A stretch of DNA of 10,782 nucleotides from positions 1-10,782 of the forward strand of contig JANNBC010000018.1 of NCBI GenBank assembly GCA_031385045.1, written 5' to 3'. Below the pieces are notes generated by a model. The model was not told the origin of the DNA and did not search any database. It saw nothing but the letters and a program-made list of their open reading frames with translations. Positions 1 to 10,782 of this stretch are shown here, piece after piece. Each line of letters opens with the position of its first letter. Position 1 is the stretch's first letter. Made by a program: the position numbers and the translations under genes. This DNA comes from a bacterium. GTDB taxonomy: Bacteria > Bdellovibrionota_C > UBA2361 > CALJRW01.

Positions 1-136
1 AAGCTAAGCTTCCAAATCGTAAAAATAAAAATAGAAGTTACCCTCGAGTTATTAAAAATGGCAAAGATCGTTACGAAAAGGCAGCAGTTCTATCAAAAAG
101 TAATGGCGTAACTCTGGAGGAAGGTAAGTGACATTC
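1..136 (+). mobile_element. Right (3') end of an IS4-family insertion sequence, truncated by the window edge
   Basis: Frame 3..131 encodes AKLPNRKNKNRSYPRVIKNGKDRYEKAAVLSKSNGVTLEEGK*, with an R-x-Y-P-R-V-x-K motif typical of IS4-group transposase C-termini. The stop lies within the terminus GGTAAGTGACATTC (reverse complement GAATGTCACTTACC, resembling the NAATG.. ends of the IS4 group). An identical inverted copy is at 10643-10778. Confidence 0.8.
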
Positions 137-147
137 GAGCCTGGCAC
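137..147 (+). repeat. 11-bp direct repeat GAGCCTGGCAC (copy 1), putative IS4 target-site duplication
   Basis: Immediately follows the IS end at 136. An identical copy at 10632-10642 immediately precedes the other IS end. The length fits IS4-group duplications (about 10-13 bp). Confidence 0.85.
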
Positions 148-237
148 TAGGGAAACTAGGGGAAAACTCAGGCTTAGCTGTACCAGAATTCGTATGCGTG
201 GAGAGTTTGTGTCCTTGAATCAATGCTCGACTATTAC

Positions 238-1680
238 TTAGGGTTGTCGAAATGAGAATTCGACAAGTTTTAGTTTATCATTATTATTAACCATATGGTT
301 CATCGGCATTTGGTGCCAAGCAATAACCATCCATATATTAGCAATAATAGTCCAGAGAGAAAGTATCGCGAGAAATGTATAACAGAACTTGCTTAATGAA
401 AAATCCACTCGCGCCATAAAAATTGCAAATCCGCTTATCAAGAATGGCAGAAATTCTGCAGCAAATCGCAGGGATTGGAAAAAATAGGTAAACATCAGGA
501 GTGCTTCTAATAGGAAAGCAAAACTGGCAAAGATCAGATATTTCGGAAGTTTAGGATTACTTGATTCAACACACAACCGTTTATTAAGAAGCCCAAAATA
601 TCCCATAAATGCACCAGCAATAATAAAGGGGGAAACTAGAAGTTGGGAGATTGAGTATTCGCGGTATCCATCAGTGAAATACTTTGTAGCTGGATAATAT
701 ACATAGGAAAGGGAAAAGAAAGGGAAATTCTGCTGAGGTATAGGTAGCAGGAGGAAATAATTTAAAAAGCCAATATGGGTTCTAAGTACGTTTAAAATCC
801 CTCCATACTTTTCGATGGGTTTTCCGCGCCAGAATAAATCGTGAGTAAAGACAGTCCAGTCGCCGTAGCGGCAATCGTTATACCAGAGCTGGAATCCAAG
901 ACCCAAAGATATGGGAAGGAGCAGGGCAAAAAATCTTGCGCTGGCTGCTAGCACAATGTCTTTTGAAAAATTAGACTGTTTAAAGAAAAGCCAACTCTCG
1001 CCAATGAGTATGTAGACAAGGATAGCAAAAAGAGGAAGGGCAAAGGTTACACGTGACAGCAATGCCCCAGCACAACAAATAGAGAAAAGAACTAGTTGTC
1101 CCAGCCTGAGCTTGCGAGACCACAGACACCAGAGGCCCAGCAGGCTCCAGAAAAGTCCCCAAAGCATGGCTTCATGGTAAATGCTCATAGCGGAAAGTAA
1201 GAAAATGATTGGGGTTCCAAGTGCAAATGCCAGCAAGGTCAGTATTAGAAAGTAGCCAGCTTGATTAGAACTGGAGCTGTTATGCCAAAAGAAACTGCGC
1301 CCAAGAATTCCTACAAAGGCGAGTACTGAAAAAAAAGCAGCAAGCAGGCCTGAAAAACGGCTGAATTTACCAGTTTCTACAGAAACGAAAGCAGAGCTGA
1401 CAATTCGTAGTAGAGCTGGAAAGGAGCCAAAATACATAGTCGGCTTGCTGTTTGTGAAATGTGACTCGTTCCCTAAGGTTGAGGGAGAAACAGAGCAATC
1501 GCCATGGATTAGGCTTTCTGCAAGTGAATCAAAGGCGGCACTATGGCTTTCATAATCAAAAAGGTTTCCACTGAGATGGGTCGCTACCAGAAAGTACACT
1601 GCCAAAATGATAACAAGAGTTAGCACTTTGCAGATTTGCCATATCGCTAGATGATTAATTAACCTGATCATAAAATTCAA
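238..1680 (-). CDS. Polytopic membrane protein, putative GT-C-fold glycosyltransferase (480 aa; alternative ATG start at 1671)
   Basis: Roughly 10-12 hydrophobic segments. Acidic loop after the first TM (FDSLAESL...ESHF...MYFGSFPALLR), mid-protein YHEA, and late RFAAEF, as in GT-C/PMT-like hypothetical proteins. Confidence 0.7.
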   Translation of the reverse strand: MNFMIRLINHLAIWQICKVLTLVIILAVYFLVATHLSGNLFDYESHSAAFDSLAESLIHGDCSVSPSTLGNESHFTNSKPTMYFGSFPALLRIVSSAFVSVETGKFSRFSGLLAAFFSVLAFVGILGRSFFWHNSSSSNQAGYFLILTLLAFALGTPIIFLLSAMSIYHEAMLWGLFWSLLGLWCLWSRKLRLGQLVLFSICCAGALLSRVTFALPLFAILVYILIGESWLFFKQSNFSKDIVLAASARFFALLLPISLGLGFQLWYNDCRYGDWTVFTHDLFWRGKPIEKYGGILNVLRTHIGFLNYFLLLPIPQQNFPFFSLSYVYYPATKYFTDGYREYSISQLLVSPFIIAGAFMGYFGLLNKRLCVESSNPKLPKYLIFASFAFLLEALLMFTYFFQSLRFAAEFLPFLISGFAIFMARVDFSLSKFCYTFLAILSLWTIIANIWMVIAWHQMPMNHMVNNNDKLKLVEFSFRQP

Positions 1681-1777
1681 ATTACTAATAATGATTTAGT
1701 AAGTCTAGTAGAGAAAATGATCAGTAAACTCCCGTTCCACGATGGGTACTCTGATTTTTCTAGCGACTATTCCATTA

Positions 1778-3259
1778 TCAAGGCAAACATACTCTGTTAT
1801 TTAGAAATCCTGGACTCCCATTGCTAGCGTATCTTCGAATTTCCTGAGTATTACAATTTGTTAGCGAGAATTGTGAAGCAGGGCATTCAGGCTGGCATTT
1901 ATTTGGAGATTCTTGATATGTGCGCACAAGATAGACTTTGTGACCGAGGCAGGCGTCAAATTCAGTCTTGCTATTCTCACTAAAAAATTGTGCATTTGAT
2001 GAAAATTTCATGAATAATTCTTTTTGTAACTCAGAACGTTCACCTTTTTCGAGCGGGATATAAACGCACAGGTGCTCAAGACTAGTGGCGCTTGAAAGAG
2101 TAGCCCATTGCACAAGTGGGACACCGGGAAGTACGGTCCAGCCACTGTTGTAAAGTTCATCTGTGACAATCTTTGGCCACCACTCCATTTGGGTGCCCGC
2201 GGCAGCATATAGATTAGCAAGTGGAACTGTGTAGGAAAGGATAACAAGCACAGCAAAATATTTTGATATATCGATTAGTATGAGAGAAAGGGCAACAAGT
2301 CCAAGAGTAATAGCTGGATAGAGGTAGCGCGCAAAGAGATTATTGTCTGCATTCTGGGTAAACAGAATGAAAAAAATGGAAAGGAAAGAAAGAAATAAGA
2401 TCCAACAATCCCTCTTTCTTGCCAGTATTTTTAGGAACGAAGGATTTTTAGCCAGTGTAAATATAAGTAGAAGTAAACCTAATGGGCTTAGATAAAAGAT
2501 CCAGACCCAGGTGAAATCATCAATAGCATTGAGCTTGATCTGAATGTTGCTTATATTAAAGATCTCGCCTATTCCTCCAAAATTTATACGGCGAAGAACT
2601 ATCAATGCAGTCGCAACCTGATTAATAGCCAAACCCAGAAGCATCGCTAAAATGAATATTATTCGCCCGTTCATTCCAAGTACTTGCCAAAAACAGATGC
2701 ATAGAATAGCCAGAGCGGGCAGGGTGGTTTGTTTACCCCAGGCAAGTGCAACCGTTATAAGAAAAAGTATCAGTAAATATTTCCTTAGAGGACCGAAATA
2801 ATCGATGCGTATGAGTGTCCCATACAAGATCAACAGTAAGGGAATAAGTAGGCTCTCCATCATGAGCTGGGTTGCAGACAATAGGTAAAGTGGCGAAATT
2901 AAAATAGCTGCAAATAAGATGATTCTTTGACTGCAAGACAAGCGTTGTATACTGAATACAAGATAGCTTACAGATATTGCGTGTAAGGTAATGAACAGCC
3001 AGTAGAGAGAAATGTATTTTAGGTGACCAAAGATAGTACCAATTTGGGTAACCCAAAGATAATTTATAGAATAGAAAAGAAATGGTTTTCCTGTATAATG
3101 TGTGTCACCAAATATTCCAGCAGCGCCAAACTTTCCCAGATCAGGTCCAATATACTGATTCTCATCAACATGGAAGCCCCAATTTCGCAGCATTAGTGCA
3201 AAAAAGAGAACTCCGCAGCCGACCAAGCAAAATAGTGTTAATTCAATCGATTTATTCAT
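1778..3259 (-). CDS. ArnT/PMT-like (GT-C) membrane glycosyltransferase with a Cys-rich C-terminal soluble domain (493 aa)
   Basis: DExxY (VDENQY) after TM1, GKPFLFY (KPPL-like), MMES, WGKQT and late ARYLYP, the motif layout of ArnT/GT83-GT39-like enzymes. Multiple TMs are followed by a ~130-aa hydrophilic tail with six Cys. Confidence 0.75.
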   Translation of the reverse strand: MNKSIELTLFCLVGCGVLFFALMLRNWGFHVDENQYIGPDLGKFGAAGIFGDTHYTGKPFLFYSINYLWVTQIGTIFGHLKYISLYWLFITLHAISVSYLVFSIQRLSCSQRIILFAAILISPLYLLSATQLMMESLLIPLLLILYGTLIRIDYFGPLRKYLLILFLITVALAWGKQTTLPALAILCICFWQVLGMNGRIIFILAMLLGLAINQVATALIVLRRINFGGIGEIFNISNIQIKLNAIDDFTWVWIFYLSPLGLLLLIFTLAKNPSFLKILARKRDCWILFLSFLSIFFILFTQNADNNLFARYLYPAITLGLVALSLILIDISKYFAVLVILSYTVPLANLYAAAGTQMEWWPKIVTDELYNSGWTVLPGVPLVQWATLSSATSLEHLCVYIPLEKGERSELQKELFMKFSSNAQFFSENSKTEFDACLGHKVYLVRTYQESPNKCQPECPASQFSLTNCNTQEIRRYASNGSPGFLNNRVCLP

Positions 3260-3499
3260 TTTTTTTAAATATTAGTTCTCGGACTTTTAGTCCAGAAGGA
3301 TTCTGCCAGCGAGTAGTATAATTCATATTTTGTTTCTCAGTATCTGTTATCTGAAAAATTTGCCTCCTCACCAGAATGTGTGGGTAAGTTTTGGCTCAGG
3401 CAGTGCTCCCATTTGATGGCATAGTGCGATTTCAAGCCCTCTGAAGGTTCTAAAACCAGCAGCTTTTCTGATAGTGAGTTTAGCTTTACAGTTAAATCC

Positions 3500-4653
3500 C
3501 TTGATGAATCCGTAGTAGTAAAGAGCATTAAAATCCCAGCACCTGAAATTAAAGACTTAAACCCTGATGAGTACGAGTTAATTAAAACTAATTACCACTA
3601 TGAATTAGCACAAAAGCCAGCAAGCTACATGGTGATTGAGCATATTCAAGATGTAGTGAAGATTAATGATAAAATAGTTACTGCTCCACGGGTTGGCTCT
3701 GTCCTTTCTGGTAGTTATGCCGATGTTAGCCTTCTATCTAATTTAATTATTGATAAATTTCAGTATCATTTACCACTTTATCGCCAGCACCAAAGAATAG
3801 CGGCTGCTGGGATTAAGATATCCCGAGTTAGTTTAACTAATTATGTACATCAGTCATTAGATTTACTGGAGCAAATTTATTATGCGCAGTTAGATTTGAT
3901 AAAACCTTTGGATGGATGAGACTCCAATCAAAGCTGGTCATAATAAAGAGAAAAAGAAATTAAAGTCAGGGTACATTTGGAGTTTGTATGGGAAGAAAAA
4001 GGAGGTAGCTTTTTGGTATCATGAGTCGCGTGGTACAAAGGTGATTATGAAACTGCTAGCTAAGGACTTTAAAGGAACATTAGTTACGGATGGCTATGAG
4101 GCTTATAGTAATTACACTAAAGACCTTTCCACAGTGGAGCATGCTATGTGCTGGTCACACACGAGATGATTATTTCTAAAAGCAGAGGAGCTGCAACCAG
4201 AGCTAGTAACTAAAGTTTTAAAATATATTAGGTTATTATATCAGGTGGAAGAATCCATTAAGAACAGAAGCTAACAGTTTAACTTTACTTCCGAGCGATC
4301 TATTTACTAAAGCATGTAATTATTTTTTTAAGCATGAGGCTGAACTTCGAGTATTTTTATCTAATCCAAGTGTAACTATTGATACTAAGCATTTAGAGCG
4401 AGAAATTCGTCCGATTGCGATTGGAAGAAAAAACTGGCTTTTTTGTTGGACAGAAATTGGTGCTCATTACGCAGCGATTGCTTACAGCTTAATTGCGACT
4501 TGTAAGTTGCACGATGTAAAACCATACGAATATCTAGTTGATGTCTTGCAAAGAGTTAAAGATCATCCGCACCAACAGACCCAAGAATTAATTCCAAGGA
4601 ATTGGAAACAGAATTTTCAACATAAAAAATTAATTTCAGCAATCGATCTTTAA
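3500..4653 (+). pseudogene. tnpC: Degenerate IS66-family transposase TnpC (5'-truncated, frameshifted, internal stops); left boundary approximate
   Basis: Fragments: DESVVVKSIKIPAPE...ELAQKPASY, DKFQYHLPLYRQHQR, MDETP, LVTDGYEAY, CWSHTR* (stop 4167-4169), and LEREIRPIAIGRKNWLFCWTEIGAH...LIPRNWK ending TAA 4651-4653. Frameshift near 3900-3912 and a probable internal deletion near 4270. Confidence 0.92.
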
Positions 4654-4676
4654 GGACGCTGATTTTAACCGCTTAC
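4651..4676 (+). repeat. Right terminal inverted repeat of the IS66 remnant
   Basis: ...GATTTTAACCGCTTAC ends at 4676 (reverse complement GTAAGCGG..., the canonical IS66 GTAAGCG end) just after the tnpC stop. No matching left end found. Confidence 0.8.
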
Positions 4677-4794
4677 ATTTGAGCTAATCTCAATCACAGT
4701 GTTTAGCTTTATACCAGCTTTGGTTTTACGAAACTTTGCCCAAGGAAATAATGTTAAACACAGATACAATAGGGCTACAACTACTTTTGCTAAA

Positions 4795-6231
4795 TCAATC
4801 AATGCAACTGCTATTTGTTTTCTTACTCAGCCTGAAAAAGTGCCAAAACCCTACCAGTTGAATAAGGGCAAGTGGAAGCACGCTTAGTAGACCACTCAAG
4901 CCTAGCAATGAAGCTAGATTGAATTTGTAAAAGGAGCTGTATGGATTTGGAAATGATGGGTAACCCGCATCGGGGAAGTCATTAGAAAAAAAACGAGTCA
5001 GAATAGTTGCAAGTGGGGTTTCGTTTTTTATACCCGGCATGACATCAATTACCGTAACTGCAAAAATAATAGAATAGGAAATCCCCATTATAATTAGAAA
5101 TAGTTTTGGCATTTTTATATATAGTCCGATCGAATATACGGATAGGAGTATCATGGCCGGAAGCATATACCTGGGCCCATAGCAATTGCCACCGTGCCAT
5201 CCATTGAAAGTAAGCATGAAGGCAAAAGAGCAGGTGATAATAATAGCGGGCAGAGTATCTTTTGATAGTAACAGGGGAAACCTTAAAAGGTGTCTTCTTA
5301 ACAGAATAAAGAGTCCGACCAGCACTAGTGGTTGACTAGGTAGAAAAGCACGATTGCTCCAAAATAAAACTTTAATAAGGCGGCTCAAATCTGGGGTGTC
5401 GAATACGCCCAGAAATAATCTACTGTCCGAGAAATGTATTTGATAAAATCGATTGTTTCTAAAAGGTGATCCAAAGTTTATTGTCGCGTAGATCCAAAGC
5501 GGTAGAAGTGCAACGAAACATGCGCAGCCTACATATATGCTATATTTACGAATATTTTTGTTCAAAGCCAGAGACAGGATTACAAATGTAACAATACAGA
5601 TATTTGTGGAGTTGGCCAAAAAGCTTGCCCCTAAGGTTAAACCAAGAATAATGGCATATTTTTTAGAGGGATTCTTCCAAAGGCGGCACCACAACAAGAC
5701 CAGCAGTAGTAGCAAGTAGGATTCAAATACATGTAGAAATCCAACAGTTGAGTAAGGAAAGAGCATTGTAGACAAGGACAAGCAGTAGGCTAAAAAAATT
5801 GCCTGGTATGGAGTTATCTTCGGCCATAATAATTGAATCAAAGAAACCAGTAGCACGGATAGAAGCGCACCCCACAAAACCGATACGAAAAAAGTGATAA
5901 ATTGTATACTTAAAAGCTGAAATTGTGCGCTTGTAGTATCTACTCCAAAAGTCACACTGCAATAATAAAAAACTGCGTAGGGAATCGAAGCAAAAAATAA
6001 AACGCTTGGGCTCTTGTTGGAAAATACCTTGCCATTATAAATGCTAATATCTTTGTCAATACTTTGCCACTCCTCTATTGTTACGTCTCCAGACTCGATA
6101 AAGGATTTTATTTCGCCAATCGTTGAATTCTGGTTATGTCCACCACCCTGGGAAAAATATGTAAAGGAAAAAAGCGTAATAAAAAATAACAGCCAGATGT
6201 TTCTTTTGAAGGGTTGAGGATCGGTTCGCAT
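4795..6231 (-). CDS. Polytopic membrane protein, putative GT-C-fold glycosyltransferase (478 aa)
   Basis: ATG start with upstream GGAG RBS and about 11-12 TMs. Loop GGGHNQNS...DISIYNGKVFSNKSP and late WHGGNCYGPRYMLP (WxGGxxxGPRY), characteristic of GT-C-like proteins. Confidence 0.75.
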   Translation of the reverse strand: MRTDPQPFKRNIWLLFFITLFSFTYFSQGGGHNQNSTIGEIKSFIESGDVTIEEWQSIDKDISIYNGKVFSNKSPSVLFFASIPYAVFYYCSVTFGVDTTSAQFQLLSIQFITFFVSVLWGALLSVLLVSLIQLLWPKITPYQAIFLAYCLSLSTMLFPYSTVGFLHVFESYLLLLLVLLWCRLWKNPSKKYAIILGLTLGASFLANSTNICIVTFVILSLALNKNIRKYSIYVGCACFVALLPLWIYATINFGSPFRNNRFYQIHFSDSRLFLGVFDTPDLSRLIKVLFWSNRAFLPSQPLVLVGLFILLRRHLLRFPLLLSKDTLPAIIITCSFAFMLTFNGWHGGNCYGPRYMLPAMILLSVYSIGLYIKMPKLFLIIMGISYSIIFAVTVIDVMPGIKNETPLATILTRFFSNDFPDAGYPSFPNPYSSFYKFNLASLLGLSGLLSVLPLALIQLVGFWHFFRLSKKTNSSCID

Positions 6232-6506
6232 TTATTCTCCAATTAAGTATTTTATACGCTGAACGCAAAATCACCAAGAGCTACTAAAGTAAAGCTCTTC
6301 TACACCAGTCACAATCAAAATAAAGATTTTTTGACTGTTGCTGTAGGGGGACTAAGAAAGTAAAGCAAAAGTGCAGATCCGTAAATCCTGTAGCTTTCAA
6401 ACCGCAGAAATCCTAAAAATCTTGTTATATCGCAAGCTTAGTAAGTTACCAGTCAATGAGTCAGCCCACAAATACTTTGAACGAGCCGAAACAGCAATGT
6501 CTAAAG

Positions 6507-7043
6507 CTAGGGCTCTGGATTAATCCCATAAATTCTTTCTATCAAAACCTTTCCCTGCATAAAGCTTTTACCTCTAGCACTGAGAAAATACCTGTCTCCA
6601 GCCTGAGTCACATTTCCAGTAATAATTTGTTCCTTCATTCTTCGTCTAACAGCACTTTTTCTGCTCACATAATCTGCTTTAAAAACATTCTCCATTTGCT
6701 CAAGAGTTAATCCTTGTAGGGAACTAGCTTCTAATTGCGAAAGCAAGAAGGTCGAAACTGAACGTTCAAATGTCACTGGAAATACTATTAGAAATGTAAT
6801 ATTGAATGAAAATGCCAGGGCACAGATACAAACTACGTCCTTGATGTCCAGCTTAAATAATGAAAGACAGAAAGAACGTATGGCATTGGCTATCAGGAAC
6901 TGAAGAATCGCACAAACAACAGCTATGGCTATCCCGCGATAAAACAAGATTACATATGATTCAAAAAGTGGCGTATGGAAGAGCAGAGGAAAACTGAATA
7001 TTCCCATAGCAAGTGCTAATATGTATGAGCAGACAGTTCGCAT
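6507..7043 (-). CDS. Hypothetical membrane protein (3 N-terminal TMs plus a possible winged-helix-like C-terminal domain), 178 aa
   Basis: Hydrophobic N-terminal half, then PVTFERSVSTFLL...RRRMKEQIITGNV...YFLSARGKSF. The ending resembles the Y-x-L-T-x-x-G wing of wHTH folds. Purine-rich GAGG/GGAG lies upstream of the ATG. Confidence 0.7.
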   Translation of the reverse strand: MRTVCSYILALAMGIFSFPLLFHTPLFESYVILFYRGIAIAVVCAILQFLIANAIRSFCLSLFKLDIKDVVCICALAFSFNITFLIVFPVTFERSVSTFLLSQLEASSLQGLTLEQMENVFKADYVSRKSAVRRRMKEQIITGNVTQAGDRYFLSARGKSFMQGKVLIERIYGINPEP

Positions 7044-7274
7044 ATCTCCGAATTAATTACCTCTAAACTCTCTACAATCTAAAGCAAAAGGCCGTTGTCA
7101 ATTAACGATGGAAACACCTAGCTGAAATTAATCATCTAGGTGTTTATGAATTAAGTAACTTAACTCTCCTAGACAGAGAGTCAATCTATAGGATGCGTAG
7201 TGCTAGACATAGTTTTCGAGAAATAGGCAAATATATTTGCCGAAACCATTTGACTGTTAGCAAGGAGTTAAAAA

Positions 7275-7296
7275 GATAGGAAATCATAAACCCCCC
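7275..7296 (-). other. Putative oriIS end of an IS91/ISCR-like element
   Basis: + strand GATAGGAAATCATAAACCCCCC (minus strand GGGGGGTTTATGATTTCCTATC) resembles the TTCCTAT-containing oriIS of IS91/ISCR elements. It lies about 200 bp downstream of the transposase stop, the usual position. Confidence 0.7.
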
Positions 7297-7491
7297 TCTC
7301 TGTGAATTTCGTAGAATCAGTCTAACTTTGCTGATACCACCTGATCAACAAGTAGAAATAAGCAAATCTCAAACAGTGAATCGTGATATTCTGAGTTGAG
7401 TAACAAGATATGGGTAAACTCTAAGCTGTGCAAGGGAGGAATTGTTAGATTGAGGTAAAAAAAGTCCAAAAAGAATTAAGTCTGCCTAATT

Positions 7492-8182
7492 TTAAGCAAC
7501 ACAAGAAAAGTTATCAGGGTAGATATCTTGATTAAGATCCTGATCAAAATCAAGAGTAGCGGATTGAATTTCTGGTGGAGGATGCCTGCCTCGCCATAGC
7601 GTAGCGACGGCGGGAAAGTTAGGGAGTTTAAGATTTTTGATAATCTTCTGAATTTCGCTCCAGTCAGTGATGAAGGCAATAATCTTCATCATCCCACCAC
7701 ATTTTTCACAAACTAAGGGGTCAACTTCGTAGATACGCTTAATGAGGGATGCCCAAGATCTGTTGATTGATTTAGGTTTGTCGGTATCATCAAGAATGAT
7801 AGTTTGATCCTCATACGCTACAATTCTCCTTTTTCCTCTGGTTCTAGCTGAGTAGTAGCCGTAGTACCTAATAGTCTGCTCGTATTTATTGGGAATGTGT
7901 GCTGATAAGGTAGCAAGGAACTCCAGTGGGTCAAACACAGCCTTAGCCAAATGAGTAGAGTCATGTTGATAGCTGATAGTATTATCAACTATCTTGATTT
8001 TATCATTCTCGACAGGGTTTCTATCGATGTAGCTAGAGATAAAAAGCCTAGCGTTAGACTCATCAGCATAAATGGTATCTCCCAGCCAAACATTAAACCC
8101 AGAGTGCTTCTGAGAGAGGATTTGATCTACTGTATGCTCAGTGATTAGCTCTAGTTCCAGTAAGGCTTTTAGTACTTTGTGT
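7492..8182 (-). pseudogene. IS91/ISCR-family rolling-circle transposase, C-terminal part only; truncated by IS66
   Basis: Motifs HSGFNV, SYIDRNPV, FDPLEFLATLSAHIP, IRYYGYYSARTRG and WASLIKRIYEVDPLVCEKCGGMMKIIAFITD. The N-terminal Zn-binding and HUH region is absent. The first ~35 aa of ORF 7492..8286 come from the antisense strand of the IS66 left end. Confidence 0.9.
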
Positions 8183-8271
8183 GTAATTCCCCCACTGGCA
8201 CCATACCTACCGCAATTTGAGTAATCCTGAGATAACCCTGTTTGTAATTTAACAAACGAGGGATATTTTAA

Positions 8272-8550
8272 ATGAAGAGTAATCAAGACGGTGAATGGGA
8301 AGTAGTAATTAAAGATTGGGAGTCGAGCGAACTATCTCGGAGAGAGTATTGCAAGCGGAGTGGTATTAAGGAGCATCAACTAAGTTACTGGCATCAGAAG
8401 CTAGGGAAGGTAACTGAGGAATTGCCTAAGTTTGTATCAATATTAAACGTTAATAGTTGGATTGAGCTAGAAATTGGCAAGGTGAAACTAAAACTACCAG
8501 TGGAACTGTCCAGTCAGCGAATATCAGAGATAATAAAATGCTTAAGTTAA
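8272..8550 (+). CDS. tnpA: IS66 accessory protein TnpA (HTH)
   Basis: WEVVIKDWESSELSRREYCKRSGIKEHQLSYW pattern; first ORF after IRL; GAGGG RBS. Confidence 0.9.
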   Translation: MKSNQDGEWEVVIKDWESSELSRREYCKRSGIKEHQLSYWHQKLGKVTEELPKFVSILNVNSWIELEIGKVKLKLPVELSSQRISEIIKCLS

Positions 8551-8903
8551 GTATTACCACCAAGGTGTACCTGTCCTCTGTTGCTACAGATATGCGGTGT
8601 GGAGTATTTAGTTTATCAGGCAAAGTGCTAGAAGTTTTTGAGGGAAATTCCTTAGATGGAAATTTGTATGTATTTATTTCTAAGGATAAAAAGAAAGTAA
8701 AGATCCTTCACTGGGAAGAAGATGGTTACTGGTTACATCAAAAGCGACTAGGAGTTGGCACCTTTCAGATTAGACTAGAGGATTCTGGAATGGATGTAAT
8801 TACTGGTATTGATTTAGAGAAGTTATTATCAGGAATAAGTTTTGCTAAGATAAAATTATCTAAAAACATTAAAAATAACCTAGCTAAAAGTCCGTTGATT
8901 TGA
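8538..8903 (+). CDS. tnpB: IS66 accessory protein TnpB (Orf2; not the RNA-guided TnpB nuclease)
   Basis: TDMRCGVFSL...LYVFISKDKKKVKILHWEEDGYWLHQKRL-G-F motifs; overlaps the tnpA end. Confidence 0.95.
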   Translation: MLKLSITTKVYLSSVATDMRCGVFSLSGKVLEVFEGNSLDGNLYVFISKDKKKVKILHWEEDGYWLHQKRLGVGTFQIRLEDSGMDVITGIDLEKLLSGISFAKIKLSKNIKNNLAKSPLI

Positions 8904-8914
8904 TATAAGAAATT

Positions 8915-10404
8915 ATGTCAAAATCAACTGCCAGTTGTGTTTCAGAGCCTAGTTATGAAGATTTAGTGCAGTCTAATTCTTTACTAAAACAAGAGCTAGA
9001 ACTGTTTAAATTTAAGTTTGAACAGTTACAGAAATACGTCTTTGGTAAGAAAAGCGAGAAGCAGTTTTTAGCTTCTCTTCCGAGCAGCTAAATTTCCTAA
9101 CCCCAACTGATACTAATGTACCAGAAACTAACGAAGACTACATTACCATCTCTGAGCATCGGAAAAAGAGAGTATCCAAGAAGTCCTTTCCAAAGGATCT
9201 ACCAGTTGAGGAAGTTGTGTACCTTCCTGCAGAAACTTCTTGTGCTGACTGTGGGTTAGAACTAAAAGAGTTCTCTAGGGATATTCGGGAAGAGATTGAG
9301 TTTTATCCAGCTAGGTTCTTTAAGCGTCAAATTATTAAGGTAAACTGTAGCTGTCCTAAGTGTAATAAGGTGGTATCAGGTAATACCCCAAGTCCTGTAA
9401 TTGCAGGAAGCCAGATGGGAGCTGGATTCTTTGCTCACTTAATAACCAGTAGGTTCTGTGACCACTTACCGTATTACCGCCAATCTCAAATGTATGAGCG
9501 AGAAGGAATTATTATTCCCGATAAGACCCTATCTAATTATGCTCAAAATCTTGTGTTGCTACTTGAACCAGTAGCTAAACAAATTAAACAGTCTTTACTA
9601 TCTCTTGATTACTTACAAGTGGACGAAACTTCACTACAAGTTCTAGAGAAGGAGCAAACCCACACAGGCAGACTCTGGGTACTAAATGACCCAAGGGAAA
9701 AGTTAAGTTACTTTGAGTATCATGACAGTCGTAGTCAGGAGGCATCTGATAGCTTTCTATCTGGATTTTCAGGAGCTTTGCAGTCAGATGCCTATGTAAC
9801 CTATGATAAACATTTAGGACTTTCAATCGGGTGCTTGGCTCATGCTAGGAGAAAATTTGTGGAAGCTAGTAAGTTAGCACCGAAAGATTGTAAAAATATT
9901 GTACAGCTAATAGCTAGTTTGTACGGGATTGAGAAAGAGCTAACCAAGTTAACAACTAAGCTAAAACCAGAGGCTTGGTTCCAAGAACGGTTAACAGTTA
10001 GGCAAGAACAGTCAGTGCCAATTCTAAATCAACTAAAAGATTATCTCGTTAAGATTAAAGATTCTTATTTAATTGCGGATCATCCCATGACCAAAGCAAT
10101 TAATTATATGCTTACTAGGTACGATACTTTTTGTAGTTACACAACTCACGGTAAATATCAGATCGATAATAATGATATTGAAAGAGTTATTCGTCCAATT
10201 GCAATTGGACGGAAGAATTGGCTTTTTGCTGGGTCGCATCAAGCTGCTAAAATTAATGCCGTCATGATGACCGTTGTGCAGACTTGCAGGCAACTTAAAA
10301 TTAATCCTCAAAAATATTTAGCTGATGTCTTGCCAAAGCTCGCTAGTCATAAAACTACTTCACTAAAAGGTTTAACACCTATGGATTGGTCAACTGGTAA
10401 ATAG
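8915..10404 (+). pseudogene. tnpC: IS66 DDE transposase TnpC with a frameshift near 9050-9090
   Basis: ATG 8915 reads MSKST...LQKYVFGKKSEK...* (TAA 9089-9091). The -1 frame continues EQLNFL...FPKDLPVEEVVYLP, then CADCG, DHLPYYRQ, VDET, LQSDAY, CLAHARRKF and IDNNDIERVIRPIAIGRKNWLFAGS to TAG 10404. Confidence 0.9.
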
Positions 10405-10631
10405 GCATGGTGCCGGTGGGGGGCTTACTTTATTTCCACCAAGACTACCAGTACTGCACAACCTAGTTGAGCACAGGTATTAGGTAGCCCTCATATCTAT
10501 CATCTAGCCTTTGCGCTAGCAGTCTAGAGATCTATCTAGCGTTCTGCTGATTTACCATTCAGATCAATTTCAGTTTCTATCATTTGTGCTTTTTTACGAT
10601 CAACTTAAAAGATTCTTGACTCGAGGATCAA

Positions 10632-10642
10632 GAGCCTGGCAC
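10632..10642 (+). repeat. 11-bp direct repeat GAGCCTGGCAC (copy 2), putative IS4 target-site duplication
   Basis: Identical to 137-147 and directly abuts the inverted IS end starting GAATG at 10643. Confidence 0.85.
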
Positions 10643-10782
10643 GAATGTCACTTACCTTCCTCCAGAGTTACGCCATTACTTTTTGATAGAACTGCTGCCT
10701 TTTCGTAACGATCTTTGCCATTTTTAATAACTCGAGGGTAACTTCTATTTTTATTTTTACGATTTGGAAGCTTAGCTTGGAG
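10643..10782 (-). mobile_element. Right (3') end of the same IS4-family element, inverted copy, truncated by the window edge
   Basis: 10643-10778 is the exact reverse complement of 1-136. It encodes LQAKLPNRKNKNRSYPRVIK...EEGK* on the minus strand (stop 10648-10650). Confidence 0.8.

What the first reader, a model, noticed from the sequence alone, without database searches (positions are those of the whole stretch)
1..10782. Inside-out target duplication: two inverted IS4 right ends enclose the cargo with the same 11-bp direct repeat on their inner sides
Seen: [IS right end ->] GAGCCTGGCAC ...10.5 kb... GAGCCTGGCAC [<- IS right end]. Known: IS4-group elements duplicate about 10-13 bp of target on the outside of the unit that moves. 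A single insertion gives one left and one right end, and IS-mediated inversions leave the duplicated copies inverted relative to each other; neither matches this layout. Inference: 137..10631 (10,495 bp) was the target, a circle opened once at GAGCCTGGCAC by a pair of right ends. That pair could be the outer ends of a composite transposon or inner ends acting by inverse transposition. The cargo would be circularly permuted, with original continuity ...GGATCAA-GAGCCTGGCAC-TAGGG.... This is an unusual route for capturing a circle with no visible rep gene. Alternatives are two independent insertions in a hotspot of a repeated sequence, or a mis-join through a collapsed repeat. The ~140-bp ends suggest a contig broken at a multicopy IS.
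Basis: partly seen in the sequence, partly recalled or inferred. Interest (0 to 1): 0.8.

Follow-up and report, generated by a model that had tools for sequence, protein, structure and literature searches.

The report
Two IS4 right ends, one cut
Two copies of a jumping gene point inward at a single-copy 10.5-kb stretch that begins and ends with the same 11 letters, likely because their two right ends attacked one site and turned the stretch inside out, though the element's strong preference for such sites leaves a two-event coincidence open.

Summary
The match is less improbable than it looks. All 12 assembled ends of this element sit on a quasi-palindromic consensus, the chance that a site equals this 11-mer is about 1-3%, and another contig shows an identical pair by coincidence. 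A single event still fits better. The other ten ends form five pairs (four exact, one inferred), and no left end carrying either expected partner flank was found. The right site is the conserved downstream motif of a Y1-transposase element, and the left flank starts with the letters that normally follow that motif. An extra left-end flank at about four copies has no right-end partner. Best model (0.6): one right-right strand transfer, with the cargo circularly permuted, probably at the IS66 that lacks a duplication. A free circle is not shown: depth is chromosomal and no junction was found. The mechanism class (inverse or odd-end transposition) is known. Three look-ups of earlier scan notes found no report of this layout.

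The parts
1..136 (+). Right end of IS4-family element (called IS-A here): last 42 transposase codons (3-131, stop 129-131) and 17-bp terminal repeat (120-136)
   Evidence: the same end sits at 5 other contig ends
137..147 (+). 11-bp target copy X, GAGCCTGGCAC, followed by TAGG, the usual continuation of the Y1-element downstream motif
238..1680 (-). 480-aa membrane protein, no Pfam or NCBIfam hit; weak lead to PMT_2-like (GT-C) glycosyltransferases
   Evidence: PMT_2 on 13% of one cluster; relatives at 29-36% identity in 20 of 123 other genomes, none in the same-genus genome
1778..3259 (-). 493-aa membrane protein, likely PMT_2-like (GT-C) glycosyltransferase
   Evidence: clusters with 29-65% PMT_2; not found in G001 or G002
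3629..4630 (+). Decayed IS66 transposase remnant in several frames; ends not defined
4795..6231 (-). 478-aa membrane protein, lead to PMT/PMT_2-like glycosyltransferases
6507..7043 (-). 178-aa hydrophobic protein, no family hit
7492..8182 (-). 3' part of an IS91-family (Y2) transposase, cut at the IS66 left repeat
   Evidence: PF04986, profile 60-179 of 183; NF033538
8183..10428 (+). Full-length IS66 (tnpA 8272-8550, tnpB 8538-8903, tnpC from 8915 with a frame break near 9070). Terminal repeats are present but there is no flanking duplication of 4-12 bp; candidate permutation junction
   Evidence: single copy in the assembly
10430..10483 (+). Last 17 codons and stop of a Y1 (IS200-like, RAYT-like) transposase, cut by the IS66 right repeat
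   Evidence: PF01797 on the intact relative in C28
10632..10642 (+). 11-bp target copy X at the conserved position downstream of the Y1 gene (196 nt from a shared anchor, against 193 and 193 in C28 and C34)
10643..10782 (-). Second right end of IS-A, inverted; terminal repeat 10643-10659

Best explanation
Two right ends of an IS4-family insertion sequence flank a single-copy 10.5-kb stretch with the same 11-bp site on both inner sides, likely because the two right ends were paired and inserted together into one 11-bp site, which would leave the stretch circularly permuted around that site. Shown: the layout, the 11-bp duplication length, the palindromic target preference, and the position of the right site in the conserved downstream motif of a Y1-transposase element. 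Inferred: (1) the site was once intact, reading Y1 gene end, 11-mer, TAGG, then the 480-aa gene; (2) one strand transfer by two right ends opened it; (3) the other ends of the two halves were joined at the IS66, which splits two unrelated genes and has no duplication, either beforehand as a deletion circle (classical inverse transposition) or afterwards as repair of broken arms. The second route, pairing of right ends from two sister copies of one element, would also explain why about four left ends share one flank that looks like the Y1 upstream motif and has no right-end partner. I put the two routes at roughly even odds.
For: (a) Pairing: 10 of 12 assembled IS-A ends form 5 left/right pairs. 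Four are exact and 2 of these restore ORFs. The fifth, C61_3 with C38_5, has 2 of 11 mismatches and rests on G001 gene order and a hairpin across the site. Only the window's two right ends remain, and they are exact reverse complements. (b) No left end with either expected partner flank in the assembly or in 3 of 3 runs. The depth of the left-end-plus-G word is 55 in X1, against 62 for the 5 known copies and 87 for 7 (Poisson P 0.21 and 0.0002). (c) One extra left flank, TTGCGTGGCAC, appears in 3 of 3 runs. Its X1 depth, back-calculated from bin means, is 51.8, about 4 copies. A right end with its reverse complement would have split X1's window contig earlier than it ends. Its reverse complement equals the motif 87 nt upstream of a Y1 gene in G001. 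(d) The Y1 downstream motif is followed by TAG or AAG at 4 of 4 readable sites in this genome and in 5 of 8 relatives' loci. The window's left flank starts with TAG, whereas only 2 of the 10 other IS-A flanks start with TAG or AAG. The joined halves also match a repeat in C21 at 27 of 31 bases (E 0.002). (e) The chance that a site equals X is 0.8-2.6%. (f) The IS66 has no duplication and truncates an IS91-family gene on one side and the Y1 gene on the other.
Against: The target is strongly sequence-specific, and independent sites can be identical: C61 carries the same inner 11-mer at both ends, although its 5' end pairs with C41; 1 of 15 pairs of other sites is identical if the C61_3 form is used, 0 of 15 with the C38 form. 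Y1 end motifs are hot spots (2 of 5 paired IS-A sites plus a second IS4 element in C34), which raises the odds of coincidence above the matrix figure. No empty junction, circle joint or uninterrupted allele was found. Logan contigs drop links: the known C37 flank was not among X1's 10 laid records, so a hidden single-copy left partner next to another repeat cannot be excluded, and the depth argument still allows one such copy (P 0.011 for 6 copies under an over-confident Poisson model). The four-copy left flank may belong to another strain or replicon. The missing IS66 duplication is explained equally well by a plain adjacent deletion. Nothing shows what lies beyond either IS copy.
Confidence: 0.6

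Rival explanations
1. Two separate events at two hot-spot motifs that happen to share the 11-mer. These could be ordinary insertions whose left partners are hidden beside other repeats or were later replaced by recombination, or adjacent deletions that stopped at preferred sites. The cargo was never permuted.
For: All 12 ends follow one consensus. Identical independent sites exist (C61). IS4 elements pile up on these motifs: a contig of run X3 joins an IS-A right end, a site within one letter of X and a second IS4 element. X-like sites followed by TAGG also occur in C19, C20 and C21. Recombination between copies and adjacent deletion are documented causes of unmatched duplications (PMC1525189 passages; PMC11708052 abstract and introduction).
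Against: It needs an exact match in direct orientation (about 1-3% by matrix, perhaps up to 10% within the motif family, my estimate), a left flank that happens to start with TAG, and loss of both left partners.
Confidence: 0.33
2. The contig is a mis-join through a collapsed repeat.
For: The contig ends in a multicopy element at both sides, and the assembly comes from a metagenome bin with 61 contigs.
Against: X1's Logan contigs hold 112-10671 in one piece at flat depth (X1 may be the source run, so it is not independent data). No inner 31-mer is repeated or shared.
Confidence: 0.03
3. A free or multicopy circle exists now: cargo plus a composite element with right ends outside and left ends inside.
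For: The two inner flanks are an exact duplication pair, and the extra left flank has no partner.
Against: Depth is 12.4, the same as chromosomal contigs. No replication gene was recognised among 10 ORFs scanned against Pfam. No plasmid record matches 148-7400 beyond 84 bases of IS66. Two copies would give depth 25 for the extra left flank, not 52.
Confidence: 0.04

Closest known systems
IS4 family, subgroup IS4 (De Palmenaer et al. 2008, PMC2266710; section 6 with Table 1 and passages read)
   Same: -AATR ends (here GAATG), 1400-1650 bp (here 1463, from X3 record 14), 10-13-bp duplication (here 11), DDE and YREK motifs (seen in the related C21 copy), strong target specificity.
   Different: The paper's text stresses specificity in the target arms; here it lies in the duplicated 11-mer itself, a quasi-palindrome that also marks the ends of Y1 elements. 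Figure 3 and the supplementary alignments were not seen, so a like consensus may already be listed there.
Inverse transposition and inside-end reactions of Tn10 and Tn5 (inside-end deletions and deletion-inversions: PMC2723962 passages; Sasakawa and Berg 1982 seen only as a reference title in PMC1676026; the mechanism of inverse transposition itself is recalled)
   Same: Two ends from different IS copies act as one transposon and join the two sides of one target cut. Into a circle, this leaves the duplication on the inner sides.
   Different: Those are laboratory events on designed composites with an intact plasmid target. Here there is no recognised replicon, the target is a Y1-element end motif, and both left ends may share one flank, which classical inverse transposition does not produce.
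Pairing of ends from sister copies (IS10/Tn10 odd end configurations, Chalmers and Kleckner 1996, recalled, not seen; maize Ac/Ds alternative transposition, PMC4270019 passages)
   Same: Ends of separate copies transpose together during replication and give duplicated flanks, an excised circle and a repair junction.
   Different: The maize case uses one 3' and one 5' end and leaves the duplication outside the composite insertion; here two like (right) ends would be used and the duplication is inside.
ISRm22, an IS4-family element targeting REP sequences (PMC1525189 passages)
   Same: An IS4-family element inserting at the axis of a palindromic repeat; some copies have unmatched duplications.
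   Different: 6-bp duplication, IS4Sa subgroup, abundant REPs. Here the duplication is 11 bp, the core GCCWGGC is barely enriched genome-wide (147 against 126 expected), and the motif brackets Y1 genes.

Membership tests
IS4 family | DDE transposase with D(60-110)D(100-150)E spacing | tested here: met
   On the related C21 copy (87% DNA identity at the end): spacers 75 and 101, NF033592 above cut-off. IS-A's own body is not assembled; only its last 42-44 residues were compared (98%).
IS4 family | Y(2)R(3)E(6)K motif | tested here: met
   YLQRVKVEVFIRDIK in the C21 copy; not readable in IS-A itself.
IS4 family, subgroup IS4 | Ends -AATR and length 1400-1650 bp | tested here: met
   Both ends begin GAATG; 1463 bp from X3 record 14; criteria from Table 1.
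IS4 family, subgroup IS4 | 10-13-bp target duplication | tested here: met
   4 exact 11-bp left/right pairs, 2 restoring ORFs.
IS4 family, subgroup IS4 | Transposase clusters with subgroup IS4 members | not tested
   No tree built; the best plasmid hits are IS4-family transposases at 25-27% identity.
Single conventional IS insertion | One left and one right end with the duplication outside | tested here: not met
   Both ends are right ends and the repeat is inside.
Two conventional independent insertions | Each right end has a left end with the complementary 11-mer | tested here: inconclusive
Inverse transposition product | Two inward-facing ends bordering an exact target duplication | tested here: met
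Inverse transposition product | Target was a circle; the empty junction exists in an ancestor or relative | tested here: inconclusive
   No joint in 4 runs, 0 hits in metagenome and viral contigs; the halves are compatible with one Y1 end motif.
Inverse transposition product | Outer flanks of both copies lead into one donor replicon | not testable with these tools
   Needs long reads; only short-read contigs are held.
Sister right-right pairing | Both left ends carry the same flank, duplicated in inverted orientation | tested here: inconclusive
   A shared left flank at about 4 copies exists, but it is not linked to this contig by any read.

The most novel reading that the evidence does not exclude
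This is a natural footprint of like-end transposition. An IS4 element sitting in the upstream end motif of a Y1-transposase element paired the right ends of its two sister copies and struck the downstream motif of the same Y1 element. That duplicated the left flank in inverted orientation and trapped a permuted glycosyltransferase-like cluster between the copies. The element group would then be a specialist parasite of Y1-element ends that builds inside-out units from a single copy.
Probability: 0.25. Interest if true: 0.6.

Novelty: new member of a known kind. Interest (0 to 1): 0.36.

Why it matters
If the single-event reading holds, this is a rare natural record of two like IS ends acting together, a reaction known mainly from laboratory Tn5 and Tn10 work, and it would show a way for a cut-and-paste element to permute and enclose host genes without a replicon. 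The solid by-product is an IS4 element with an 11-bp palindromic target preference that coincides with the end motifs of Y1 transposase elements. It also carries a practical warning: for such elements, identical flanking 11-mers are far weaker evidence of one insertion than they appear.

Tried and rejected
The 11-mer as part of the terminal repeat: rejected, since the flanks differ among the 12 ends. Mis-join: made very unlikely. Searches for the empty site: left flank in metagenome contigs 0 hits, right flank in viral contigs 0 hits, no joint in 4 runs; runs X2-X4 cover only 29, 22 and 19 of 30 bins, so these blanks prove little. No RNA holder was listed. DNA search of 40 related genomes found only short IS- and Y1-type matches, so no uninterrupted relative was available. 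Joining the two flanks restores no ORF (54 codons), which is uninformative because the site is intergenic. No leftover fused target site was found inside the cargo: the next best matrix sites, 9831 and 313, lie within genes. The ends of the IS66 remnant could not be defined. C61_3 and C38_5 first looked unrelated because they map to different G001 contigs; a wider look supported adjacency. The plasmid search of the cargo gave one 84-base IS66 match. The terminal repeat was not found in viral contigs. Of 5 genome-collection hits, 4 were not IS ends on inspection. Literature searches listed no natural case of this layout, but one search listed 20 of 68 papers, mostly on mitochondrial gene order, so absence from print is not established. 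I could not work out what follows the extra left flank in X1: its contig ends after 11 letters, and only X3 shows a second IS4 element next to it.
Full report
Observation. The window is the whole contig C29 of a 61-contig, 2.83-Mb metagenome bin; earlier scan notes call the lineage Bdellovibrionota, which I did not test. Positions 1-148 and 10631-10778 are a 98% inverted repeat. Both arms are right ends: 3-131 encodes the last 42 residues and stop of a transposase 98% identical to the C-terminus of a related copy in C21, which scores above the NCBIfam IS4 cut-off and has DDE spacers of 75 and 101 and a YREK motif. GAGCCTGGCAC lies inside both ends, at 137-147 and 10632-10642, and nowhere else exactly in the assembly. 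The likely source run X1 holds 112-10671 as one contig at depth 12.4, with flanking contigs of other copies at 12.2-12.7, and no inner 31-mer is repeated or shared. The layout is real and single-copy.

The element. The assembly has 7 right and 5 left ends of this element (IS-A), all at contig ends. A contig of run X3 spans it and gives 1463 bp. Ends begin GAATG. Four left/right pairs share exact 11-mers, and two of them restore ORFs of 555 and 579 aa. These features match subgroup IS4 in Table 1 of PMC2266710 (section read); no tree was built.

All 12 flanks follow a quasi-palindromic consensus around GCCWGGC, and the 9 flanks of related ends that I scored show the same trend. A symmetric matrix gives a 0.8-2.6% chance that a site equals the window's 11-mer, and 0.1-0.8% that two random sites are identical in a given orientation. 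Contig C61 has the same inner 11-mer at both ends, yet its 5' end pairs with C41 by a restored ORF, so such identity does arise between separate sites. The hot spots include motifs bracketing a family of Y1 transposase genes (PF01797 on the intact C28 copy): 2 of the 5 paired IS-A sites and a second IS4 element in C34 sit at the downstream motif. The window's right site is at that position behind a 17-codon Y1 remnant (196 nt from a shared anchor, against 193 and 193).

Results for one event. First, bookkeeping. G001 gene order and a hairpin across the site indicate that C61_3 and C38_5 are a fifth pair with 2 of 11 mismatches; this is inferred. That leaves only the window's two right ends, which are an exact pair with each other. 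Second, ordinary insertions predict two more left ends with the complementary 11-mers. None is in the assembly or among the 10, 5 and 3 records laid from X1, X2 and X3 (2 records not displayed). Both would begin with G, and the depth of the left-end-plus-G word, 55, fits 5 copies (expected 62) and not 7 (expected 87). Third, the only other left flank seen, TTGCGTGGCAC, is in 3 of 3 runs. Its X1 depth is not printed; fitting the bin means gives 51.8, about 4 copies. A right end with the complementary 11-mer would share six letters with the window's right flank and would have ended X1's contig earlier than 10671, so this flank seems to have lost its partner. Its reverse complement equals the motif 87 nt upstream of a Y1 gene in G001. 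Fourth, the Y1 downstream motif is followed by TAG or AAG at 4 of 4 readable sites here (C34 left out because another element follows it) and in 5 of 8 loci of relatives (2 had no motif, 1 a different repeat). The window's left flank begins with TAG, against 2 of the 10 other flanks with TAG or AAG. Fifth, the IS66 at 8183-10428 has no duplication of 4-12 bp and cuts an IS91-family gene on one side and the Y1 gene on the other, a natural place for a permutation junction.

Mechanism. From established transposition chemistry, one strand transfer gives two ends whose outward flanks are reverse complements. The window's two right ends satisfy this, so they would be the two partners of one reaction (inferred). 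The halves left and right of the cut must then also be joined at their far ends. Route A: an IS66-linked deletion circle was attacked by the right ends of two inverted copies, which is inverse transposition. Route B: one copy in the Y1 upstream motif was replicated, the sisters' right ends paired and struck the nearby downstream motif, and the broken arms were later joined at the IS66; this also yields identical left flanks without a right partner. Route B needs further recombination to give a viable chromosome, and neither route is shown. IS66 is single-copy in the assembly, so a replicative deletion circle would have had to lose its reciprocal product.

Limits. No empty junction or uninterrupted allele was found. 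Logan contigs drop links, as the unlaid C37 flank shows, and X3 shows IS-A directly beside a second IS4 element, so hidden partners remain possible. The Poisson model understates the noise, since short-word depths ran from about 0.76 to 1.19 of expectation. The four-copy flank is not linked to this contig by any read and could come from another strain or replicon. The missing IS66 duplication fits a plain adjacent deletion just as well.

Cargo. Three membrane proteins of 478-493 aa have no Pfam or NCBIfam hit. Language-model neighbours are mostly unnamed, with leads to PMT/PMT_2 glycosyltransferases on 10-65% of the members of some clusters. The first has 29-36% relatives in 20 of 123 other genomes searched but not in the same-genus genome. 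The rest is IS debris. No replication gene was recognised.

Literature seen. PMC2266710: section 6 and passages. PMC2723962, PMC1525189, PMC1676026, PMC4270019: passages. PMC11708052: abstract and introduction. Inverse transposition and the IS10 odd-end work are recalled; only a reference title was seen. Figure 3 and the supplementary alignments of PMC2266710 were not seen and may bear on the novelty of the target consensus. Searches listed no natural example of this layout but were not exhaustive.

Verdict. Real layout, a new IS4-family member with a marked target preference, and a likely (0.6) single right-right event of a known mechanistic class; coincidence at hot spots stays at about one in three. 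Interest 0.36.

Noticed in passing
G000:C61:60397-60407 and G000:C38:140-150: A probable left/right pair whose two 11-mers differ by CC against GG. One copy completes a terminator-like hairpin and the other is a perfected palindrome, as template switching during gap repair would give. The complete related element in L052 also has unlike flanks (3 mismatches).
   Followed up: partly
G000:C28:357-1322, C34, C56, C33, C55; G001 loci L079-L091: A family of 321-aa Y1 transposases is bracketed by inverted 11-bp motifs at fixed distances (about 85-135 nt upstream, about 150 nt downstream). These motifs collect at least two different IS4-family elements.
   Followed up: partly
G000:C34:3-1148, C17:15040-15430, C20:1-130, C42 3' end: A second IS4-family element with ends CACAGCC uses the same targets, with an 11-bp duplication offset by one base (exact pair C17/C42). 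The C17 copy is cut after 390 bp. In run X3 it abuts IS-A ends directly.
   Followed up: partly
G000:C28:170-217: A 24-bp tandem duplication of the last bases of the IS-A left end together with its target site; also present in run X2.
   Followed up: no
window 8915-9220: IS66 tnpC changes frame near 9070; a contig of run X2 diverges from the window at that point, so the window copy may be a pseudogene.
   Followed up: no
G000:C25:17840-17870 and C33:11320-11345: 24-bp stand-alone hairpins made of the CACAGCC ends of the second IS4 element; possible footprints or minimal elements.
   Followed up: no
window 238-6231: Three family-less membrane proteins of about 480 aa with glycosyltransferase-like (GT-C) neighbours form a patchily distributed cluster; a distant paralogue of the third at C7:77872-79287 has an internal stop.
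   Followed up: partly
window 10272-10341: Run X2 holds an IS66 variant with 7 differences clustered in 70 bases.
   Followed up: no
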